Shown one piece after another: positions 476-28,469 of a stretch of DNA of 64,000 nucleotides. The stretch is from Thermodesulfovibrionales bacterium (GTDB taxonomy: Bacteria; Nitrospirota; Thermodesulfovibrionia; Thermodesulfovibrionales; UBA9159), in contig DASRZP010000052.1 in assembly GCA_035686305.1 (NCBI GenBank), positions 9,723-73,722 of the forward strand, read 5' to 3'. How positions within the stretch are numbered: the first letter of the stretch is position 1; each line of letters opens with the position of its first letter. Under the pieces are notes generated by a model. The model had not been told where the DNA came from. It did not search any database and saw only the letters and a list, made by a program, of their open reading frames with translations. A program made the translations under genes and the position numbers.

Positions 476-3400
476 TTGACGAGAAGCTCTGTACGCCTCT
501 TATTGTTGTCTCTTTTTGTCTTCCTTTCGCCGTCTTTTACCGAAGCATCTGATACGGCTCTCGAAAAAGATCTCCAGAAGCGCCTTGAAAAGAGTAAGCG
601 CATAATCTCGAAGGCAATAGAAAAACTCAAAGGGGGGAGTTCCATATTTGATGAGACAGCGCAACTGAAGGCCACGGCTGAGGACGTTAGGACAGTGGAC
701 CTCCTGCTTCAGGAGCGTTTCAGGTTGATGGATGAAGAAATAAAGTCAAAAGGGCCAACTGCCCGCGTGAGACAGGGAGTGATGGCGGATGGTTACCGCA
801 AGGCCCTTGCTGAATATCTCAGTCTTATTGACAGCCTCCCCCCTGAAGGGCAAAACGCTGAAGCAGTTCTGGAAAACCTCAGAGACCTTCTTGACAGAAC
901 CCTCAAGAAAAAGAAGAAGCCAATCTTCGGAAGCCTTCCTTACAGGAACCTCTACTATCCCTCAAGAGAACCAAGCGCAGACCCGCCCATTAAACCCGCT
1001 TACAAGGGCGGGAACAGGACCGTCTCCACTGATGATCTGAAAAATACTGCCGAAGCGCCAATTTCAGATACAATAGCTAACCTTGCACAATCGTTGAACT
1101 GGAATCCCATATCGATGTACGAATATGTGAAGAACACCATCGAGACAGAGTGGTACTGGGGTTGCATGAAAGGGGCGGAGGAGACCTTACGGCAGAAAGC
1201 GGGCAATGACTGCGATCAGGCGACACTCCTCGTCGCACTTTTCAGAGCGTCGGGGTTCCCCTCAAGGTATGTAAGGGGGACGATGGAATTTTTTGCAGGG
1301 GGACGAGACGGATCTCCGATAGAGAAGGTGAAGAATCTCACCGGCATAGATGACCCGTGGAAGATAGCTGAGTATTTCCAGAAGGCAGGAGTTCCCTATA
1401 AAACAACACTATCAGGGGGAACAATAACCAACTTCCAGATTGAGCACATATGGGTAGAGAGCCAGATACCCTATGCCAACTACCGGGGAGCGATTATCGA
1501 CGAGCAGGGAAAGATGTGGCTCGGCCTTGATACGTCCATAAAAGTGAAGGGATATACATACAACAATCCGATAGACGTCTATCAGCAATCGGGAATGAGC
1601 GCGCAACTATCAGCCTTGATGGACCAATACTTGGGCGCGATGCATACAGAAACTCCTCTTGAGTATCTGGAAGGAAAACTTTCAGCCAGCAGTTATCAAC
1701 TTTCTGCCCTCATGAGGACAAGGACTATAATCCCGGAGGTAATGAATATCCTCCCTGCGAGCATGCAGTTCAATCAGATCAAGATCACCCATGAGTATAC
1801 CGAGATACCTGACGAACTGAAGCACAAAGTCAGATTCATCACAGCAGACACAAACAGCGCTGAACTCTTCTCGCTGATACTCGATACCCTCAAACTCTCC
1901 AACCAGAAGATAACGATAAGCTATGAACCGGAGACGGTGGAGGACCAGCAGATCATCGACTCCTATGGAGGCTTGGATAACACACCAGCATATCTGGTGA
2001 GATTGAGGCCGGTGCTAAAGGTGAATGGGCAGAGAATGGTTGTCGGTAAGGACGCCTTGCCGATGGGAGAAGAACATACACTGCAAATAGAGCTCATCTC
2101 GCCCAATGGAACGGAAACGGGCACGAATACGCAGATAACCGGGAATGTGGTCGCCATAGGAATAGTCTCCCAGAAAGCCGTCCAACAGTCAACTGCGGAT
2201 ATAGGCAGTGATGCGGAGGCATTGCTCTTCAGAGAGACAGTAACCTATATCGACCGGTGGAACAAAGCTGAGGAAGAACTCGCCTCAATCATGCAGTTGA
2301 CATTGTCAAGACCGATGCCGACGGTGGTAATTGTCGGAGGAGTGATAGATGTCACCTGTCTTCTCGACATACCGCACGGCTTTGAATGGAAGGGAACGTT
2401 CATTGACGCGCCGGTAAGGGCGGTTGAAATAATCTCGCCGCAGTCATCCCTGCGCCGAGATGCGGAAGGAAAGCGACAAGCGACATTCATGCAATTATCC
2501 GCCCTCCAGGGCTCGATACTCGAAAACAGAATCTTCGAGGATGATTTCCGGGTCGATTCCATATCAACGGCAAAGCTCTTTGAAGTCGCAAACGCAAGTC
2601 ATACGCCGGTCCTGTCCATTGACAAAGCTAACATATCCTCACTGTTTCCCGCATTGTCATTCGATGAGGCCATCAAACAGGACATAGCAAATGCTGTGAA
2701 CCAAAATCTCACCGTCCGCATGCCTCAGACCGAAATGAGTTACGCCGATTGGACAGGAGTCGGTTATCTCAAAGAAAATCCTTTGACAGGTGAAGCCGGC
2801 TATATGCTTACCGGCATGATAGCAGGCGGAATGACGGCGGTATCACCGAATAAATGGCTGTCGGGCGATCTTAAGAGCACCTTGAACAGACCGTACTCTA
2901 CAAATTTCGCCATCCGTCCACTGATGGTAGCCATCATCTTCCCTTATGACGGAGCCGCCCTGTCTGGTTCACTGATAGACGTTGAAGGAATCGTAAGCGA
3001 TCCTGCCGCGACAGTGAATGTCAATGGCGTTAGGGCATCGGTTTCGAACAATGGCCGGTTTGCTGCAAAGGGAGTGTCGTTATCAACAGGAACAAACCGG
3101 ATAACAGCCGTTGCAACATCACTGCTCGGTAAGACTGATTCGCAGACCATAAGCGTCAATTATCAACCGTCCCAGATATCACCCATGATGCTATCGATAA
3201 CGTATCCGACTGCAGGCGCTTCGATCAATAGGCGGACAACCGTGGTGAGGGGAACTGTCACGACAGATGCGAAAGAGATATCGATCAAGGTAAACGGAAT
3301 AGCAGCAGATATTTATGGCAATCAGTTTGTGATCAACAATGTATCACTCGTAGACGGGGACAATGTGATCATCGCTAATGCACTGGATAGTAATGGAGCA

Positions 3401-4012
3401 GTTGCAAGGGCAGAGGTCACGGTAAGGGGAGACACCTCGAAGCCCTATGTTACTCTTAGCGCCAGCATCACGAGCGGCATACCGGCACTTATGGCATACT
3501 TTTCCGTCGCGACCTCCATACCCAACGTAATAACGTCGTATCAGATTGACTTTGAGGGAGCTGGGGTGATTGATTACACCGGTGACAATTTCGAAAATAT
3601 CAGCCACACCTATACGACTGAAGGCGTATATTATCCAACCGTGACGGTGGTGGATGCTCAAGGGAATACCTATACGGATTCGATTGCTATAACCGTGTTG
3701 AATAAGGCGGAAATCGATGCGCTGCTTAAAGGAAAATGGCTCAAGCTAAAAGCGGCGTTAGCAAGCGGAGACATCGAGGGAGCATTAGTTCTGTTCAAAG
3801 AAAGAGCCAAGGACAAATATAGAACTATCTTCAATGCACTCAAGGATCAGTTGCCGATGATCTTGCAGACATTTATAGAGTTCAACATCATCGACGTGTA
3901 TGAGATCATCGCCGAATATGAGATCGTGGCAAATGAAGATGGAATACTCTACTCTTATCCCGGCGTATTTATCAGGGGTGGCGATGGGATTTGGAAGTTT
4001 AACGACTTTTGA
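476..4012 (+). CDS. Secreted transglutaminase-like (papain-fold Cys-His-Asp) protein with Ig-like/PKD repeats and a small C-terminal alpha+beta domain
   Basis: 1178-aa ORF with a TTG start 7 nt after GGGGAGGG. Signal peptide MTRSSVRLLLLSLFVFLSPSFTEA. Transglutaminase-core motifs: GNDCDQATLLVALFRASGFPSRYVRG (Cys codon 1211-1213), EHIWVES (His 1445-1447), WLGLDTS (Asp 1529-1531). A PKD-type repeat (HTYTTEGVYYPTVTVVDAQGNT) lies at about 3540-3700. Confidence 0.8.
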   Translation: MTRSSVRLLLLSLFVFLSPSFTEASDTALEKDLQKRLEKSKRIISKAIEKLKGGSSIFDETAQLKATAEDVRTVDLLLQERFRLMDEEIKSKGPTARVRQGVMADGYRKALAEYLSLIDSLPPEGQNAEAVLENLRDLLDRTLKKKKKPIFGSLPYRNLYYPSREPSADPPIKPAYKGGNRTVSTDDLKNTAEAPISDTIANLAQSLNWNPISMYEYVKNTIETEWYWGCMKGAEETLRQKAGNDCDQATLLVALFRASGFPSRYVRGTMEFFAGGRDGSPIEKVKNLTGIDDPWKIAEYFQKAGVPYKTTLSGGTITNFQIEHIWVESQIPYANYRGAIIDEQGKMWLGLDTSIKVKGYTYNNPIDVYQQSGMSAQLSALMDQYLGAMHTETPLEYLEGKLSASSYQLSALMRTRTIIPEVMNILPASMQFNQIKITHEYTEIPDELKHKVRFITADTNSAELFSLILDTLKLSNQKITISYEPETVEDQQIIDSYGGLDNTPAYLVRLRPVLKVNGQRMVVGKDALPMGEEHTLQIELISPNGTETGTNTQITGNVVAIGIVSQKAVQQSTADIGSDAEALLFRETVTYIDRWNKAEEELASIMQLTLSRPMPTVVIVGGVIDVTCLLDIPHGFEWKGTFIDAPVRAVEIISPQSSLRRDAEGKRQATFMQLSALQGSILENRIFEDDFRVDSISTAKLFEVANASHTPVLSIDKANISSLFPALSFDEAIKQDIANAVNQNLTVRMPQTEMSYADWTGVGYLKENPLTGEAGYMLTGMIAGGMTAVSPNKWLSGDLKSTLNRPYSTNFAIRPLMVAIIFPYDGAALSGSLIDVEGIVSDPAATVNVNGVRASVSNNGRFAAKGVSLSTGTNRITAVATSLLGKTDSQTISVNYQPSQISPMMLSITYPTAGASINRRTTVVRGTVTTDAKEISIKVNGIAADIYGNQFVINNVSLVDGDNVIIANALDSNGAVARAEVTVRGDTSKPYVTLSASITSGIPALMAYFSVATSIPNVITSYQIDFEGAGVIDYTGDNFENISHTYTTEGVYYPTVTVVDAQGNTYTDSIAITVLNKAEIDALLKGKWLKLKAALASGDIEGALVLFKERAKDKYRTIFNALKDQLPMILQTFIEFNIIDVYEIIAEYEIVANEDGILYSYPGVFIRGGDGIWKFNDF

Positions 4013-4021
4013 CGGGAGGCT

Positions 4022-4564
4022 GTGGTGCTTGAGAAAAAATTAATCATTCTGAGTCTGATTCTTTTATTTGCCGGATGTTACCCCATCCGATATGACGGGC
4101 CATATAAAGGAAGGGTAATAGATGCAGAGACGGGCAAGCCGATTGAGGGAGTGGTGGTGTTGGGGGTTTGGTATAAAGAGATTGCAACTCCCGCCGGGGG
4201 CGTAGGCTCATATTACGATGCCGATGAGACGGCGACGGACAAGAATGGTGATTTCGAAATTCAGGGTAAGGGACTGAGGATTCTGAGTAACATAGGCCCC
4301 ATGCATGTGCTGATATTCAAGGCAGGGTATCAGTATATCGGTATGGGAATGTGGGAATCCCTCAGTATCGATGGGGGACTAATGAAGAAGAAGGCTGCAT
4401 GGGAAGGAGATAGGGCGATTATTCCTCTGAGAAAGTTGACTATGGAGGAGAGGAAAGAATCAGAAACGTTTCCTTCATCTCCACCTGCTCAAGCGCCTAG
4501 AGAAAAGATTAGATTGATGATGGAAGAACTTCACAAAGAAAGAAAAGACCGTGGCCTGGAATAG
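4022..4564 (+). CDS. Small lipoprotein with a carboxypeptidase-regulatory-like (CarboxypepD_reg) beta-sandwich
   Basis: 180-aa ORF with a GTG start 9 nt after the upstream stop and GGGAGG in front. Lipobox LLFAGC. The motif GRVIDAETGKPIEGVVVLG is typical of CarboxypepD_reg domains. Confidence 0.6.
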   Translation: MVLEKKLIILSLILLFAGCYPIRYDGPYKGRVIDAETGKPIEGVVVLGVWYKEIATPAGGVGSYYDADETATDKNGDFEIQGKGLRILSNIGPMHVLIFKAGYQYIGMGMWESLSIDGGLMKKKAAWEGDRAIIPLRKLTMEERKESETFPSSPPAQAPREKIRLMMEELHKERKDRGLE

Positions 4565-28277: not shown

Positions 28278-28293
28278 AGCAGGTTCCATGCCA
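28278..28293 (-). promoter_or_regulatory. Sigma-54 (-24/-12) promoter candidate for the pilin operon
   Basis: The minus strand reads TGGCATGGAACCTGCT. GG and GC are in the exact register of the consensus TGGCAC-N5-TTGCW. It lies about 140 nt upstream of the pilin ATG. Confidence 0.6.
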
Positions 28294-28367
28294 GGGAAAT
28301 GACTTCTGAAGACCCTGATTATTGAGCAAAAAACGGGTGAGTCCCAAGCTCAGGCATCATATCTCCT

Positions 28368-28469
28368 GACAAAAACTGTCAAGATTGTCCCAACAAAGTG
28401 ACACGAAAATGACATGTGCGACATCTTCAGGTCTCGTTGTACCAGGAGGGAGGAGATTCCTAAAATGTC
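28368..28469. promoter_or_regulatory. Cluster of TGTC/GACA cores upstream of the sigma-54 promoter (candidate enhancer-binding-protein sites)
   Basis: Seven TGTC/GACA tetramers at 28368, 28377, 28386, 28400, 28411, 28420 and 28466, within about 100 bp. They lie 75-190 bp upstream of the -24/-12 element. Confidence 0.4.

What the first reader, a model, noticed from the sequence alone, without database searches (positions are those of the whole stretch)
476..28469. Exported-enzyme plus giant-protein operon placed tail-to-tail with a sigma-54 pilin operon: candidate pilus-linked attachment/attack module
Seen in sequence:
- 476-26339 is one co-directional block with gaps of 9 nt, about 22 nt (or an overlap) and 69 nt.
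- Every product has an export signal. They are a transglutaminase-fold protein with an intact Cys/His/Asp triad, a CarboxypepD_reg-like lipoprotein, a Zn-PLC/P1-nuclease-fold protein, and a 6,426-aa mosaic protein with HExxH, GH-like, discoidin, propeller and adhesion-type modules.
- Its stop lies 183 nt from the stop of a convergent three-pilin operon.
- pilMNOPQ lies about 11 kb further on. Everything else in the window is core housekeeping.

Inference: putative activities on protein, on lipid or nucleic acid, and on glycan are combined with adhesion repeats and a pilus-protein-like C-terminal module. That combination suggests a surface apparatus for binding and degrading another cell or a particle. 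I know of no described system with this composition. It could equally be a neighbourhood of unrelated surface genes.
Basis: partly seen in the sequence, partly recalled or inferred. Interest (0 to 1): 0.8.

Follow-up and report, generated by a model that had tools for sequence, protein, structure and literature searches.

The report
Conserved exported-enzyme and giant-protein operon
The four exported-protein genes, including a 6,426-residue giant, form a real operon that is conserved in Nitrospirota relatives, but its position next to the pilin genes appears to be specific to this genome, not evidence of a pilus-linked machine.

Summary
Positions 476-26339 encode four co-directional exported proteins. 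These are a transglutaminase-like protein with an intact Cys/His/Asp triad, a small lipoprotein, a protein with phospholipase C/P1-nuclease-type zinc motifs, and a 6,426-aa giant. The giant's stop lies 183 nt from a convergent three-pilin operon, which has a sigma-54 promoter that is conserved in relatives.

The first three genes occur in the same order in all five relatives' loci examined. A collinear giant (45-49% identity) follows in three of the five. The giant belongs to a large uncharacterised family: 64 of the best 150 matches are 4,000-7,895 aa. All share a new N-terminal HExxH domain.

The pilus link is not supported:
- Four pilin loci from relatives lack the operon.
- Two relatives' loci that have the first three genes but no giant have no pilins within 10 kb downstream.
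- The two operons converge, and each has its own terminator-like hairpin.
- The "pilus-like" C-terminal domain (DUF7305, a beta-solenoid also found in PilX-like minor pilins) occurs in only 3 of 64 family giants. It is part of a swappable tail of about 1,500 aa.

Best reading: a lineage-specific operon for a surface adhesin/hydrolase, with accessory exported enzymes. Function is inferred, not shown.

The parts
476..4012 (+). o1: exported 1,178-aa transglutaminase-like protein. It has a signal peptide, a coiled N-region, a TGase core with C246/H324/D352, two Glucodextran_B Ig-like domains and a PKD domain. It is the first gene of the operon.
   Evidence: Pfam hits are. The triad is invariant in the L001 and L003 orthologues, which are 55-58% identical. 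Divergent genes lie upstream in the same strain, locus L040.
4022..4564 (+). o2: 180-aa lipoprotein with a sub-threshold transthyretin-like (CarboxypepD_reg) segment
   Evidence: The lipobox Cys19 is invariant in 5 orthologues. The Pfam hit is weak, at 18.6 bits against a cut-off of 32.3.
4551..6989 (+). o3: 812-aa exported protein. The N-terminal all-alpha domain (about aa 38-300) carries PLC/P1-nuclease-type zinc-ligand motifs. The C-terminal half is made of beta-sandwich domains. Its start overlaps the end of o2.
   Evidence: Homologues number 1,624 or more, mostly from Thermodesulfovibrionales/Nitrospirota MAGs. Invariant residues are listed. The AF2 model has pLDDT 87.6. Foldseek matched only the beta-sandwich half. 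hhalign against 1AH7 is. The o2/o3 overlap is 4-38 nt in all relatives.
7059..26339 (+). Giant gene of 6,426 aa with a Sec signal. It is a member of a large family of collinear giants.
   Evidence: The ORF is and the domains. It is collinear with the giants of L001, L003 and L039 (45-49% identity over about 3,250 aa). It is also collinear with 64 family representatives of 4,000-7,895 aa.
7059..8138 (+). Signal peptide plus the N-terminal HExxH domain of the giant (aa 1-360). HEVLH lies at aa 163-167 (nt 7545-7559). This is a putative new zinc-peptidase-like domain.
   Evidence: There is no Pfam, NCBIfam or PDB sequence hit. The representative search found 3,954 proteins at E<=1e-3. HExxH[RKQ]W is kept in 127 of 150 and HW[SN]F in 149 of 150.
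8157..8885 (+). Alpha/alpha-toroid domain of the prenyltransferase/squalene-cyclase/TED type, aa 367-609
   Evidence: SQHop_cyclase_C scores E 6e-20. No thioester CxEQ motif is present.
17964..18305 (+). Discoidin (F5/8 type C) lectin-like domain, aa 3636-3749
   Evidence: 37.6 bits against a cut-off of 28.2.
19224..19595 (+). PD40/TolB-type beta-propeller blades, aa about 4056-4179. A second propeller-like region lies at aa about 1304-1589.
   Evidence: The orthologues carry Tricorn-type propeller hits.
21759..26336 (+). Variable C-terminal tail cassette, aa 4901-6426. It contains Ig repeats, a GH-A-like TIM barrel (aa about 5559-5837, nt 23733-24569), choice-of-anchor D, CarboxypepD_reg, an InlB-B-like repeat and a DUF7305 beta-solenoid.
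   Evidence: The cassette is 56% identical over 1,618 aa to a free-standing 2,012-aa protein of another MAG, locus L010. Most family giants end instead in a helical LDELLKIWxxKWY motif. In the GH barrel the nucleophile LEYG is kept, but the acid/base NE is replaced by ND.
25560..26336 (+). C-terminal DUF7305 beta-solenoid, aa 6168-6426
   Evidence: Pfam scores E 1e-25. The AF2 model has pLDDT 92.7. Foldseek best matches are DUF3494 ice-binding proteins; ComZ and tapirin matches are weak. The domain co-occurs with PilX_N and lies in T4P clusters in distant relatives.
26416..26443 (+). Intrinsic-terminator-like hairpin with a T-run, 77 nt after the giant's stop
26463..26491 (-). 10-bp hairpin downstream of the last pilin gene, a candidate terminator of the pilin operon
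   Evidence: The minus-strand fold has z = -2.4.
26523..28136 (-). Three type IV pilin genes (26523-27002, 27011-27517, 27612-28136). They neighbour the operon but are not part of it.
   Evidence: N_methyl motifs and NCBIfam pilin hits are. Hundreds of close homologues exist.
28278..28293 (-). Sigma-54 -24/-12 element TGGCATGGAACCTGCT, 142 nt upstream of the first pilin gene
   Evidence: The same element lies upstream of the pilins in L035, L036 and L038.
39384..44404 (+). pilMNOPQ
   Evidence: Pfam hits for PilM_2, PilN, PilO and Secretin are. pilP (41601-42134) is placed by position only and was not scanned.

Best explanation
The region 476-26339 is a self-contained operon specific to one lineage (Thermodesulfovibrionia/Nitrospirota). 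It encodes proteins exported through Sec to the envelope or cell surface.

The conserved core is three genes (the trio):
- a large transglutaminase-like Cys/His/Asp enzyme;
- a small lipoprotein;
- a translationally coupled enzyme with a PLC/P1-nuclease-type three-zinc site and beta-sandwich domains.

The trio is usually followed by a giant protein from a large, collinear family. This giant has:
- an N-terminal HExxH (zincin-like) domain and an alpha/alpha toroid;
- long arrays of Ig-like spacers;
- a lectin domain and propeller domains;
- in this genome, a swapped-in tail with a glycosidase-like barrel and a terminal adhesive beta-solenoid.

Inferred mechanism: the giant is a surface-exposed, stalk-like adhesin/hydrolase. 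It holds binding and catalytic modules away from the cell. The trio acts in the same extracellular process, either as co-acting hydrolases or by processing the giant. In the second case the TGase-like enzyme would cleave or cross-link it, in analogy to LapG acting on LapA. The lipoprotein would tether the PLC-like enzyme to the outer membrane.

The neighbouring sigma-54 pilin operon is an independent transcription unit. Its adjacency is specific to this genome. DUF7305 is an adhesive module shared with PilX-like pilins, not a sign that the giant is a pilus component.

Shown here: gene structure, conservation, domain content and non-linkage to pilins where testable. Inferred: localisation, activities and the relationship between the trio and the giant.
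For: - Trio conservation: the trio is in the same order, with an o2/o3 overlap, in window, L001, L003, L039, L004 and the P0005 locus.
- Co-divergence: the giants are collinear and diverge in step with the trio. o1 is 55-58% identical, o3 47-51% and the giant 45-49%.
- Operon start: o1 is the first gene, since divergent genes lie upstream in L040.
- Operon end: a terminator-like hairpin follows the giant.
- Family size: 3,954 representatives carry the N-terminal domain, and 64 of the best 150 are collinear giants of 4,000-7,895 aa.
- Conserved catalytic-type motifs: the o1 triad, eight of nine PLC zinc-ligand positions in o3, and HExxH in 127 of 150.
- No linkage seen from the pilin side: 0 of 4 relatives' pilin loci have the operon within 10 kb.
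- No linkage seen from the operon side: L004 and the P0005 locus have no pilins downstream, and the close DUF7305 copies with 0.9-10 kb of downstream DNA have none either.
- The DUF7305 tail occurs in only 3 of 64 giants. It also exists as part of a separate 2,012-aa protein in another MAG.
- The sigma-54 element is conserved only upstream of the pilins.
Against: - No expression, localisation or activity data exist.
- The trio occurs without the giant in 2 of 6 loci, so it cannot be solely a maturation system for the giant.
- The PLC/P1 assignment is statistically weak: no Pfam or PDB profile hit, and hhalign gives probability 5%.
- The GH-like barrel lacks the canonical acid/base residue.
- No route across the outer membrane and no anchor can be named for a 6,426-aa Sec substrate in a diderm. 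A T2SS or T4P-type secretin route is not excluded.
- DNA downstream of the three orthologous giants (L001, L003, L039) could not be fetched, so conserved pilin adjacency in those genomes is not formally excluded.
Confidence: 0.6

Rival explanations
1. Pilus-linked attachment/attack module. The giant and the three exoenzymes work with the neighbouring type IV pilus. For example, the DUF7305 tail could dock the giant onto the pilus tip or the minor-pilin complex, or the giant could leave the cell through a PilQ/T2SS-type secretin, in order to bind and degrade another cell or a particle.
For: - DUF7305 is the head domain of PilX_N-containing proteins. It lies directly after minor pilins in T4P clusters (L021, L028, L026).
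- Foldseek gives weak matches to the pilus-associated ComZ and to tapirins.
- In this genome the giant's stop is 183 nt from the pilin operon, and pilMNOPQ is 13 kb away.
- A published parallel exists: Omnitrophota giant genes lie next to T2SS/T4P-like loci, with a proposed role in prey adhesion and digestion (bioRxiv 10.1101/2023.11.21.568195).
Against: - The adjacency is not found in any relative that could be tested.
- The operons converge with separate terminators.
- The giant has a Sec signal, not a prepilin signal.
- Only 3 of 64 family giants have the DUF7305 tail, and L003's orthologue lacks it.
- Close copies of the tail sit on many unrelated large proteins with no pilin neighbours.
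- None of the 120 closest pilin homologues lies on a contig known to carry the operon, judged by comparing contig lengths.
Confidence: 0.1
2. The trio is a dedicated system for maturing, anchoring or releasing the giant. The TGase-like enzyme would cleave or cross-link the giant, in the manner of LapG. The lipoprotein and the PLC-like protein would help attach it to or release it from the outer membrane.
For: - The gene order is fixed, with the trio always upstream of the giant and diverging in step with it.
- There is precedent: the transglutaminase-like cysteine protease LapG cleaves the giant adhesin LapA (PMC3032545; PMC4694147).
- The triad of o1 is intact.
Against: - The trio stands alone in L004 and in the P0005 locus, which is the closest relative with context at 54% identity.
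- The o3 family has many paralogues and architectures unrelated to giants.
- o1 matches PF01841, and the LapG family was not among its Pfam hits. At 1,178 aa with Ig-like domains, it looks like a surface protein in its own right.
Confidence: 0.2
3. The genes are a neighbourhood of unrelated surface genes with no functional unit beyond shared export.
For: - The giant is absent from 2 of 6 trio loci.
- The flanking genes differ in every locus.
Against: - The trio keeps the same order, tight spacing and an overlapping o2/o3 junction in six loci at 40-58% identity.
- The giant, when present, is always immediately downstream, on the same strand and collinear.
Confidence: 0.1

Closest known systems
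Giant genes of Omnitrophota next to T2SS/T4P-like loci (West-Roberts et al., bioRxiv 10.1101/2023.11.21.568195)
   Same: Both are very large exported multidomain proteins that combine attachment and carbohydrate-active modules. Both lie near pilin or secretin genes, and both have been proposed to mediate adhesion and degradation.
   Different: In Omnitrophota the secretion locus is conserved upstream of the giant genes. Here the pilin adjacency is not seen in relatives. The conserved partners are instead a TGase-like, lipoprotein and PLC-like trio. The phylum differs (Nitrospirota) and the proteins are smaller (4-8 thousand aa).
LapA/LapG (and CdrA/LapG) of Pseudomonas: a giant adhesin controlled by a transglutaminase-like cysteine protease (PMC3032545, PMC4694147)
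   Same: Both pair a giant repeat-rich surface adhesin with a Cys/His/Asp transglutaminase-fold enzyme located outside the cytoplasm.
   Different: From general knowledge, LapA is a T1SS substrate without a Sec signal, and LapG is a small periplasmic protease of a different Pfam family controlled by LapD and c-di-GMP. Here the giant has a Sec signal, o1 is 1,178 aa with Ig-like domains, no LapD/LapBCE genes were found in the part of the window that was scanned, and the trio also occurs without a giant.
PilX-like minor pilins carrying DUF7305, and beta-solenoid pilus-associated adhesins (Thermus ComZ, PDB 6qvi; Caldicellulosiruptor tapirins, PDB 6n2b)
   Same: The C-terminal 259 aa of the giant match Pfam DUF7305 at E 1e-25. 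The same family forms the head of PilX_N proteins encoded in T4P clusters. The predicted fold is a beta-solenoid.
   Different: The giant has no prepilin signal and no PilX_N helix. The structural matches to ComZ and tapirin are weak (E 0.13-0.4). The best fold matches are DUF3494 ice-binding proteins.
Zn-dependent phospholipase C / P1-S1 nuclease superfamily (B. cereus PC-PLC, PDB 1AH7)
   Same: The N-domain of o3 is predicted to be all-alpha. Conserved W38, H44, D99, H116/118, H198, D202, H208 and E231 line up with W1, H14, D55, H69, H118, D122, H128 and E146 of PC-PLC.
   Different: No significant profile or sequence match was found. The H142 equivalent was not identified. The protein is about three times longer, with a beta-sandwich C-terminal half similar to the barrels of transglutaminases and the MG domains of complement.
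Giant Ig-repeat adhesins with terminal ligand-binding modules (e.g. MpIBP of Marinomonas primoryensis); comparison from general knowledge
   Same: Both have a long array of Ig-like spacers ending in lectin and beta-helical binding modules.
   Different: Those adhesins are RTX/T1SS substrates with a C-terminal secretion signal. This giant has an N-terminal Sec signal, an N-terminal HExxH domain, and no RTX family among the Pfam hits.

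Membership tests
Transglutaminase-like superfamily (Pfam PF01841), o1 | Profile match above the gathering score | tested here: met
   33.2 bits against a cut-off of 23, covering aa 214-270. The orthologues also hit the family.
Transglutaminase-like superfamily (Pfam PF01841), o1 | Cys-His-Asp catalytic triad | tested here: met
   C246 (GNDCDQA), H324 (EHIWVE) and D352 (LGLDTS) are invariant in three orthologues.
LapG-type adhesin-releasing protease (BTLCP) | Membership of the LapG/BTLCP profile family, small periplasmic protein, partner LapD, T1SS adhesin substrate | tested here: not met
   The only Pfam hits for o1 are Glucodextran_B, Transglut_core and PKD_4. The protein is 1,178 aa. The giant has a Sec signal. 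No LapD or T1SS genes were found in the ORFs that were scanned; part of the window was not scanned.
Zn-dependent PLC / P1 nuclease superfamily, o3 | Significant profile match to Zn_dep_PLPC or S1-P1_nuclease | tested here: not met
   No Pfam hit even at E<=5. No PDB profile hit. hhalign against 1AH7 gives E 0.007 and probability 5%.
Zn-dependent PLC / P1 nuclease superfamily, o3 | Nine zinc ligands (W1, H14, D55, H69, H118, D122, H128, H142, E146) on an all-alpha fold | tested here: inconclusive
   Eight of the nine positions align with invariant or near-invariant residues in a permissive (low-threshold) hhalign alignment. The AF2 N-domain is all-alpha. Foldseek on the whole model returned only beta-sandwich matches. 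One homologue is named 'phospholipase C/P1 nuclease family protein' by NCBI.
Bacterial lipoproteins, o2 | Signal peptide ending in a lipobox with an invariant Cys | tested here: met
   The sequence LLFAGC has Cys19 invariant in 5 orthologues. No dedicated predictor was available.
Type IV pilins (three genes at 26523-28136) | Prepilin N-terminal G-F-T-L-x-E methylation motif with a hydrophobic helix | tested here: met
   N_methyl scores E 5e-9 to 6e-10, and TIGR02532 also matches.
Sigma-54 promoter (pilin operon) | GG-N10-GC (-24/-12) element in the upstream intergenic region, conserved in relatives | tested here: met
   TGGCATGGAACCTGCT lies at 28293-28278 on the - strand. Matching elements lie upstream of the pilins in L035, L036 and L038. 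The strict pattern occurs only 3 times in 128 kb of searched sequence (both strands). Function was not tested.
PilX-like minor pilin / pilus component (giant) | Prepilin-type or PilX_N N-terminal helix | tested here: not met
   The giant starts with a Sec-type signal. No N_methyl or PilX_N hit was found.
PilX-like minor pilin / pilus component (giant) | DUF7305 domain | tested here: met
   E 1.2e-25 at aa 6281-6423. The same family occurs in PilX_N proteins.
Giant-gene plus T2SS/T4P locus association (Omnitrophota type) | Secretion or pilus locus conserved next to the giant gene across relatives | tested here: not met
   No pilin or secretion genes lie in the 10-kb flanks of the relatives' loci. 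Relatives' pilin loci lack the operon. Downstream of the three orthologous giants was not retrievable.
Clan GH-A glycoside hydrolase (giant aa about 5559-5837) | Profile match, plus an Asn-Glu acid/base on strand 4 and a Glu nucleophile on strand 7 | tested here: inconclusive
   GH2_C scores 27.7 bits (cut-off 21) and GH72 27.9 bits (cut-off 25.9). The nucleophile-like LEYG is conserved, but the NE position reads ND (window, L010) or SN (P0384).
Zincin metallopeptidase (giant aa 1-360) | HExxH plus a third zinc ligand on a thermolysin-like or metzincin-like fold | tested here: inconclusive
   HExxH[RKQ]W is kept in 127 of 150 family members, and a downstream HW[SN]F in 149 of 150. No match to any Pfam, NCBIfam or PDB sequence was found. 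The structure was not predicted.
RTX/T1SS giant adhesins | C-terminal RTX repeats or T1SS signal, no Sec signal, adjacent ABC/MFP genes | tested here: not met
   An N-terminal Sec signal is present. No RTX family is among the Pfam hits. No T1SS genes lie nearby.

The most novel reading that the evidence does not exclude
The trio and the giant could form a previously undescribed, Nitrospirota-wide extracellular apparatus. In this reading, a new HExxH protease domain, a PLC/P1-type zinc hydrolase and a transglutaminase-fold enzyme are delivered on or beside a stalk of about 6,000 aa, to bind and break down other cells or particles. Swappable tails would retarget the apparatus. In genomes such as this one, the DUF7305 tail would couple it to the type IV pilus through the same interface that PilX-like pilins use.
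Probability: 0.1. Interest if true: 0.75.

Novelty: new variant of a known kind. Interest (0 to 1): 0.4.

Why it matters
Thermodesulfovibrionia are widespread anaerobic sulfate reducers and include magnetotactic and syntrophic lineages. How they interact with surfaces and with partner cells is poorly known.

This work defines three things:
- a large, entirely uncharacterised family of 4-8 thousand aa exported proteins with a new conserved HExxH domain;
- a fixed trio of accessory exoenzymes;
- modular tails that can be swapped between proteins.

It also removes a tempting but unsupported inference, that the operon is coupled to pili. Follow-up work can therefore target the operon itself: export route, substrates, and the relationship between the trio and the giant.

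Tried and rejected
- Retrieving orthologous giants with the search for homologous proteins using the giant's C-terminal 600 aa. No self hit appeared and no listed hit exceeded about 1,100 aa. The hits were dominated by Ig-like repeats.
- Scanning genome contigs and metagenome contigs with the C-terminal domain alignment, to read what follows orthologous giants. The scans returned 2 and 24 loci. Most were paralogous proteins or short contigs, and none was the tail of the L001, L003 or L039 giant.
- Cross-referencing contig lengths between the 120 closest pilin homologues and the operon-bearing contigs. No overlap was found. This is weak negative evidence only.
- PDB profile searches with o3 and with the giant's N-terminal domain found nothing significant.
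- Foldseek on the whole o3 model was swamped by the beta-sandwich half, so the PLC-like N-domain could not be tested by fold.
- A sigma-54-like element 60 nt upstream of o1 is not conserved in L001, L003 or L039, so it was rejected as evidence of co-regulation with the pilins.
- No thioester (CxEQ) motif is present in the toroid domain, so an alpha-2-macroglobulin-like mechanism was rejected.
- Rfam found no RNA family in the window.
- A literature search for DUF7305 found no paper.

Full report
**Observation**

- o1 at 476-4012, 1,178 aa
- o2 at 4022-4564, 180 aa
- o3 at 4551-6989, 812 aa
- a 19,281-nt ORF at 7059-26339, 6,426 aa

All four are on the + strand. The spacing is a 9-nt gap, a 14-nt overlap and a 69-nt gap. 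Three pilin ORFs lie on the - strand at 26523-27002, 27011-27517 and 27612-28136. The giant's stop and the last pilin's stop are 183 nt apart.

The N-termini, judged by eye, look like this:
- o1, o3 and the giant have Sec-type signals.
- o2 has a lipobox whose Cys19 is invariant in five orthologues.

pilMNOPQ lies at 39384-44404 (pilP is placed by position only). The genes between the pilins and pilM include trigger factor, clpX, infB and truB, plus ORFs placed by position only. Those beyond pilQ are also mostly housekeeping.

**Proteins**

*o1.* It matches Transglut_core above threshold. C246, H324 and D352 are invariant in the L001 and L003 orthologues. It also carries two Glucodextran_B Ig-like domains and a PKD domain.

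*o2.* It gives only a sub-threshold CarboxypepD_reg hit.

*o3.*
- It has no Pfam, NCBIfam or PDB sequence match.
- An AF2 model (pLDDT 87.6) shows an all-alpha N-domain followed by beta-sandwich domains.
- Foldseek on the whole model found only the beta-sandwich half, matching transglutaminase barrels and complement MG domains.
- In a 32-sequence alignment, H44, D99, H116, H198, D202 and H208 are invariant, and H118 and E231 are nearly so.
- hhalign against B. cereus PC-PLC aligns the core GHxxHLxQDxxxPxH motif. I first verified that sequence against PDB 1AH7.
- In a permissive (low-threshold) run, hhalign lines up eight of the nine zinc-ligand positions. The score is weak, with E 0.007 and probability 5%.
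- One homologue is named 'phospholipase C/P1 nuclease family protein' by NCBI.
- I treat the assignment as plausible but not established.

*The giant.* Its domains, in order, are:
- a signal peptide and a 330-aa HExxH domain with no database match
- an alpha/alpha toroid
- CARDB and FlgD-Ig arrays
- two propeller regions
- many Big_13, Glucodextran_B and Big_7 Ig-like domains
- a discoidin domain and an fn3 domain
- a GH2_C/GH72-like TIM barrel
- a choice-of-anchor D domain
- a CarboxypepD_reg domain and an InlB-B-like repeat
- a C-terminal DUF7305 domain

In the TIM barrel, the nucleophile-like LEYG is conserved, but the canonical Asn-Glu acid/base reads Asn-Asp.

**Is it a conserved unit?**

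o3 has more than 1,600 homologues. Where sources name an organism, most are Thermodesulfovibrionales or Nitrospirota MAGs. Five relatives' loci were read.

| Locus | o3 identity | Trio (TGase-like, ~180-aa protein, PLC-like) | Giant |
|---|---|---|---|
| L001 | 49% | yes | 5,868 aa |
| L003 | 51% | yes | 7,020 aa |
| L039 | 47% | yes | at least 5,095 aa, runs off the contig |
| L004 | 40% | yes | none; opposite-strand genes follow o3 |
| P0005 locus | 54% | yes | none; opposite-strand genes follow o3 |

- In every locus o2 and o3 overlap by 4-38 nt.
- The three relatives' giants are collinear with the window's giant over all the sequence available. That is about 3,250 aa at 45-49% identity.
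- This divergence is similar to that of o1 (55-58%) and o3.
- The flanking genes differ in every locus.
- In the same strain (L040), divergent genes lie upstream of o1, so o1 starts the unit.

**The giant family**

- A search of 1.84 billion representatives with aa 30-360 found 3,954 proteins at E<=1e-3 and 842 at E<=1e-30.
- Of the best 150, 64 are 4,000-7,895 aa. All 64 listed in full have the domain at the N-terminus.
- All 64 align collinearly with the window's giant, in most cases as far as about aa 4,950, at 30-47% identity.
- HExxH[RKQ]W is kept in 127 of 150, and a downstream HW[SN]F in 149 of 150.
- Most of these giants end in a helical motif (…LDELLKIWxxKWY). The window's giant lacks it.
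- Instead, aa 4901-6426 of the window's giant are 56% identical over 1,618 aa to a free-standing 2,012-aa protein. That protein lies on another contig of the MAG that also carries L001 (locus L010).
- The window's giant is therefore a tail-swapped member of the family.

**The pilus question**

*What supports a connection.*
- The C-terminal 259 aa match DUF7305 (E 1e-25).
- The AF2 model (pLDDT 92.7) is a beta-solenoid. Its best structural matches are DUF3494 ice-binding proteins. Matches to the pilus-associated ComZ and tapirins are weak.
- In distant relatives, DUF7305 is the head of proteins of about 410-520 aa. These either carry a PilX_N helix (L021) or lie directly after minor pilins inside a T4P cluster (L028).

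*What argues against a functional link.*
- The giant has a Sec signal and no prepilin or PilX_N helix.
- Only 3 of 64 family giants have this tail. L003's orthologue lacks it.
- Close copies of the tail (61-87% identity) end many otherwise different large proteins. None of these has pilin genes in the 0.9-10 kb of downstream DNA that was available.
- Four pilin loci from relatives, with pilins 61-72% identical, hold tandem pilins followed by TPR, glycosyltransferase and ABC genes. None has the operon within 10 kb.
- The two trio loci without a giant have no pilins downstream.
- The 183-nt gap holds a terminator-like hairpin with a T-run for the giant. It also holds a second 10-bp hairpin, for which only the minus-strand fold scores well (z = -2.4).
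- The sigma-54 element TGGCATGGAACCTGCT upstream of the first pilin is matched by similar elements in L035, L036 and L038. A weaker sigma-54-like site upstream of o1 is not conserved.

*What could not be tested.* The DNA downstream of the giants in L001, L003 and L039 could not be fetched.

**Most likely explanation**

This is a lineage-specific operon for exported envelope or surface proteins. I infer that the giant is a stalk-like adhesin/hydrolase made of Ig spacers plus lectin, propeller, HExxH and glycosidase-like modules and a terminal adhesive beta-solenoid. I infer that the trio acts in the same extracellular process.

A processing role for the TGase-like protein has a precedent in LapG cleaving the giant adhesin LapA (PMC3032545, PMC4694147). 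Two points weaken that idea. The trio also occurs without a giant, and the LapG family was not among o1's Pfam hits.

The defining feature there is conserved adjacency, and that feature is not met here.

**Verdict**

The operon and most domain calls hold, but the pilus linkage does not.
- Novelty: a new variant of a known kind, namely giant exported adhesin/enzyme proteins. What is new is an uncharacterised conserved trio of partner genes and a new N-terminal HExxH domain.
- Interest is moderate (0.4).

Noticed in passing
window 28578-28895 (+): A 105-aa ORF that looks like a stand-alone GIY-YIG nuclease domain, judged by eye. It lies between the pilin promoter region and a radical-SAM gene (29020-29991, - strand).
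   Followed up: no
window 416-432 (+): A sigma-54-like element, CTGGCGTTTCCGAGGCA, lies 60 nt upstream of the o1 start. It is not conserved upstream of the o1 orthologues in L001, L003 or L039.
   Followed up: yes
proteins P0366-P0515: Most giants of the family end in a conserved helical C-terminal motif (…R/KLDELLKIWxxKWY). The window's giant lacks it. This could be a sorting, anchoring or oligomerisation element of the family.
   Followed up: partly
proteins P0380, P0394, P0397-P0399, P0405 and others: The HExxH domain also occurs near the C-terminus of a second architecture of 1,200-2,900 aa. In many of these proteins the strict HExxH[RKQ]W motif is missing.
   Followed up: no
L010 4760-10798 (same MAG as L001, another contig): A free-standing 2,012-aa exported protein equals the window giant's tail cassette (56% identity over 1,618 aa). 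This shows that the cassette moves between genes.
   Followed up: yes
L006 4139-4432: Downstream of a close DUF7305-tailed protein lies an orphan ORF that resembles the end of an RHS core followed by a short toxin tip (…NPINYKDPKGLE…). Small hydrophobic ORFs flank it.
   Followed up: no
window 44447-46529 (+): Directly after pilQ there are a 212-aa ORF and a 473-aa protein with a Big_1 (intimin/invasin-type) Ig domain. These may be a pilus-associated or surface protein pair.
   Followed up: no
window 57358-62576 (+): A GAF-GGDEF diguanylate cyclase (58480-60504) lies between a periplasmic binding protein and a permease of a branched-chain amino-acid-type ABC transporter.
   Followed up: no
L035, L036, L037, L038: In relatives, the tandem pilin genes are followed by TPR proteins, a further pilin-like gene, and glycosyltransferase, methyltransferase and ABC (Wzt-like) genes. 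These may serve pilin glycosylation. The window's pilin operon lacks this downstream set.
   Followed up: partly
one search hit list (e.g. P0061/P0067 on one 37,876-nt contig; P0097/P0117 on one 165,463-nt contig): The o3 family is multi-copy within genomes. It has several architectures that share only about half of the protein.
   Followed up: no
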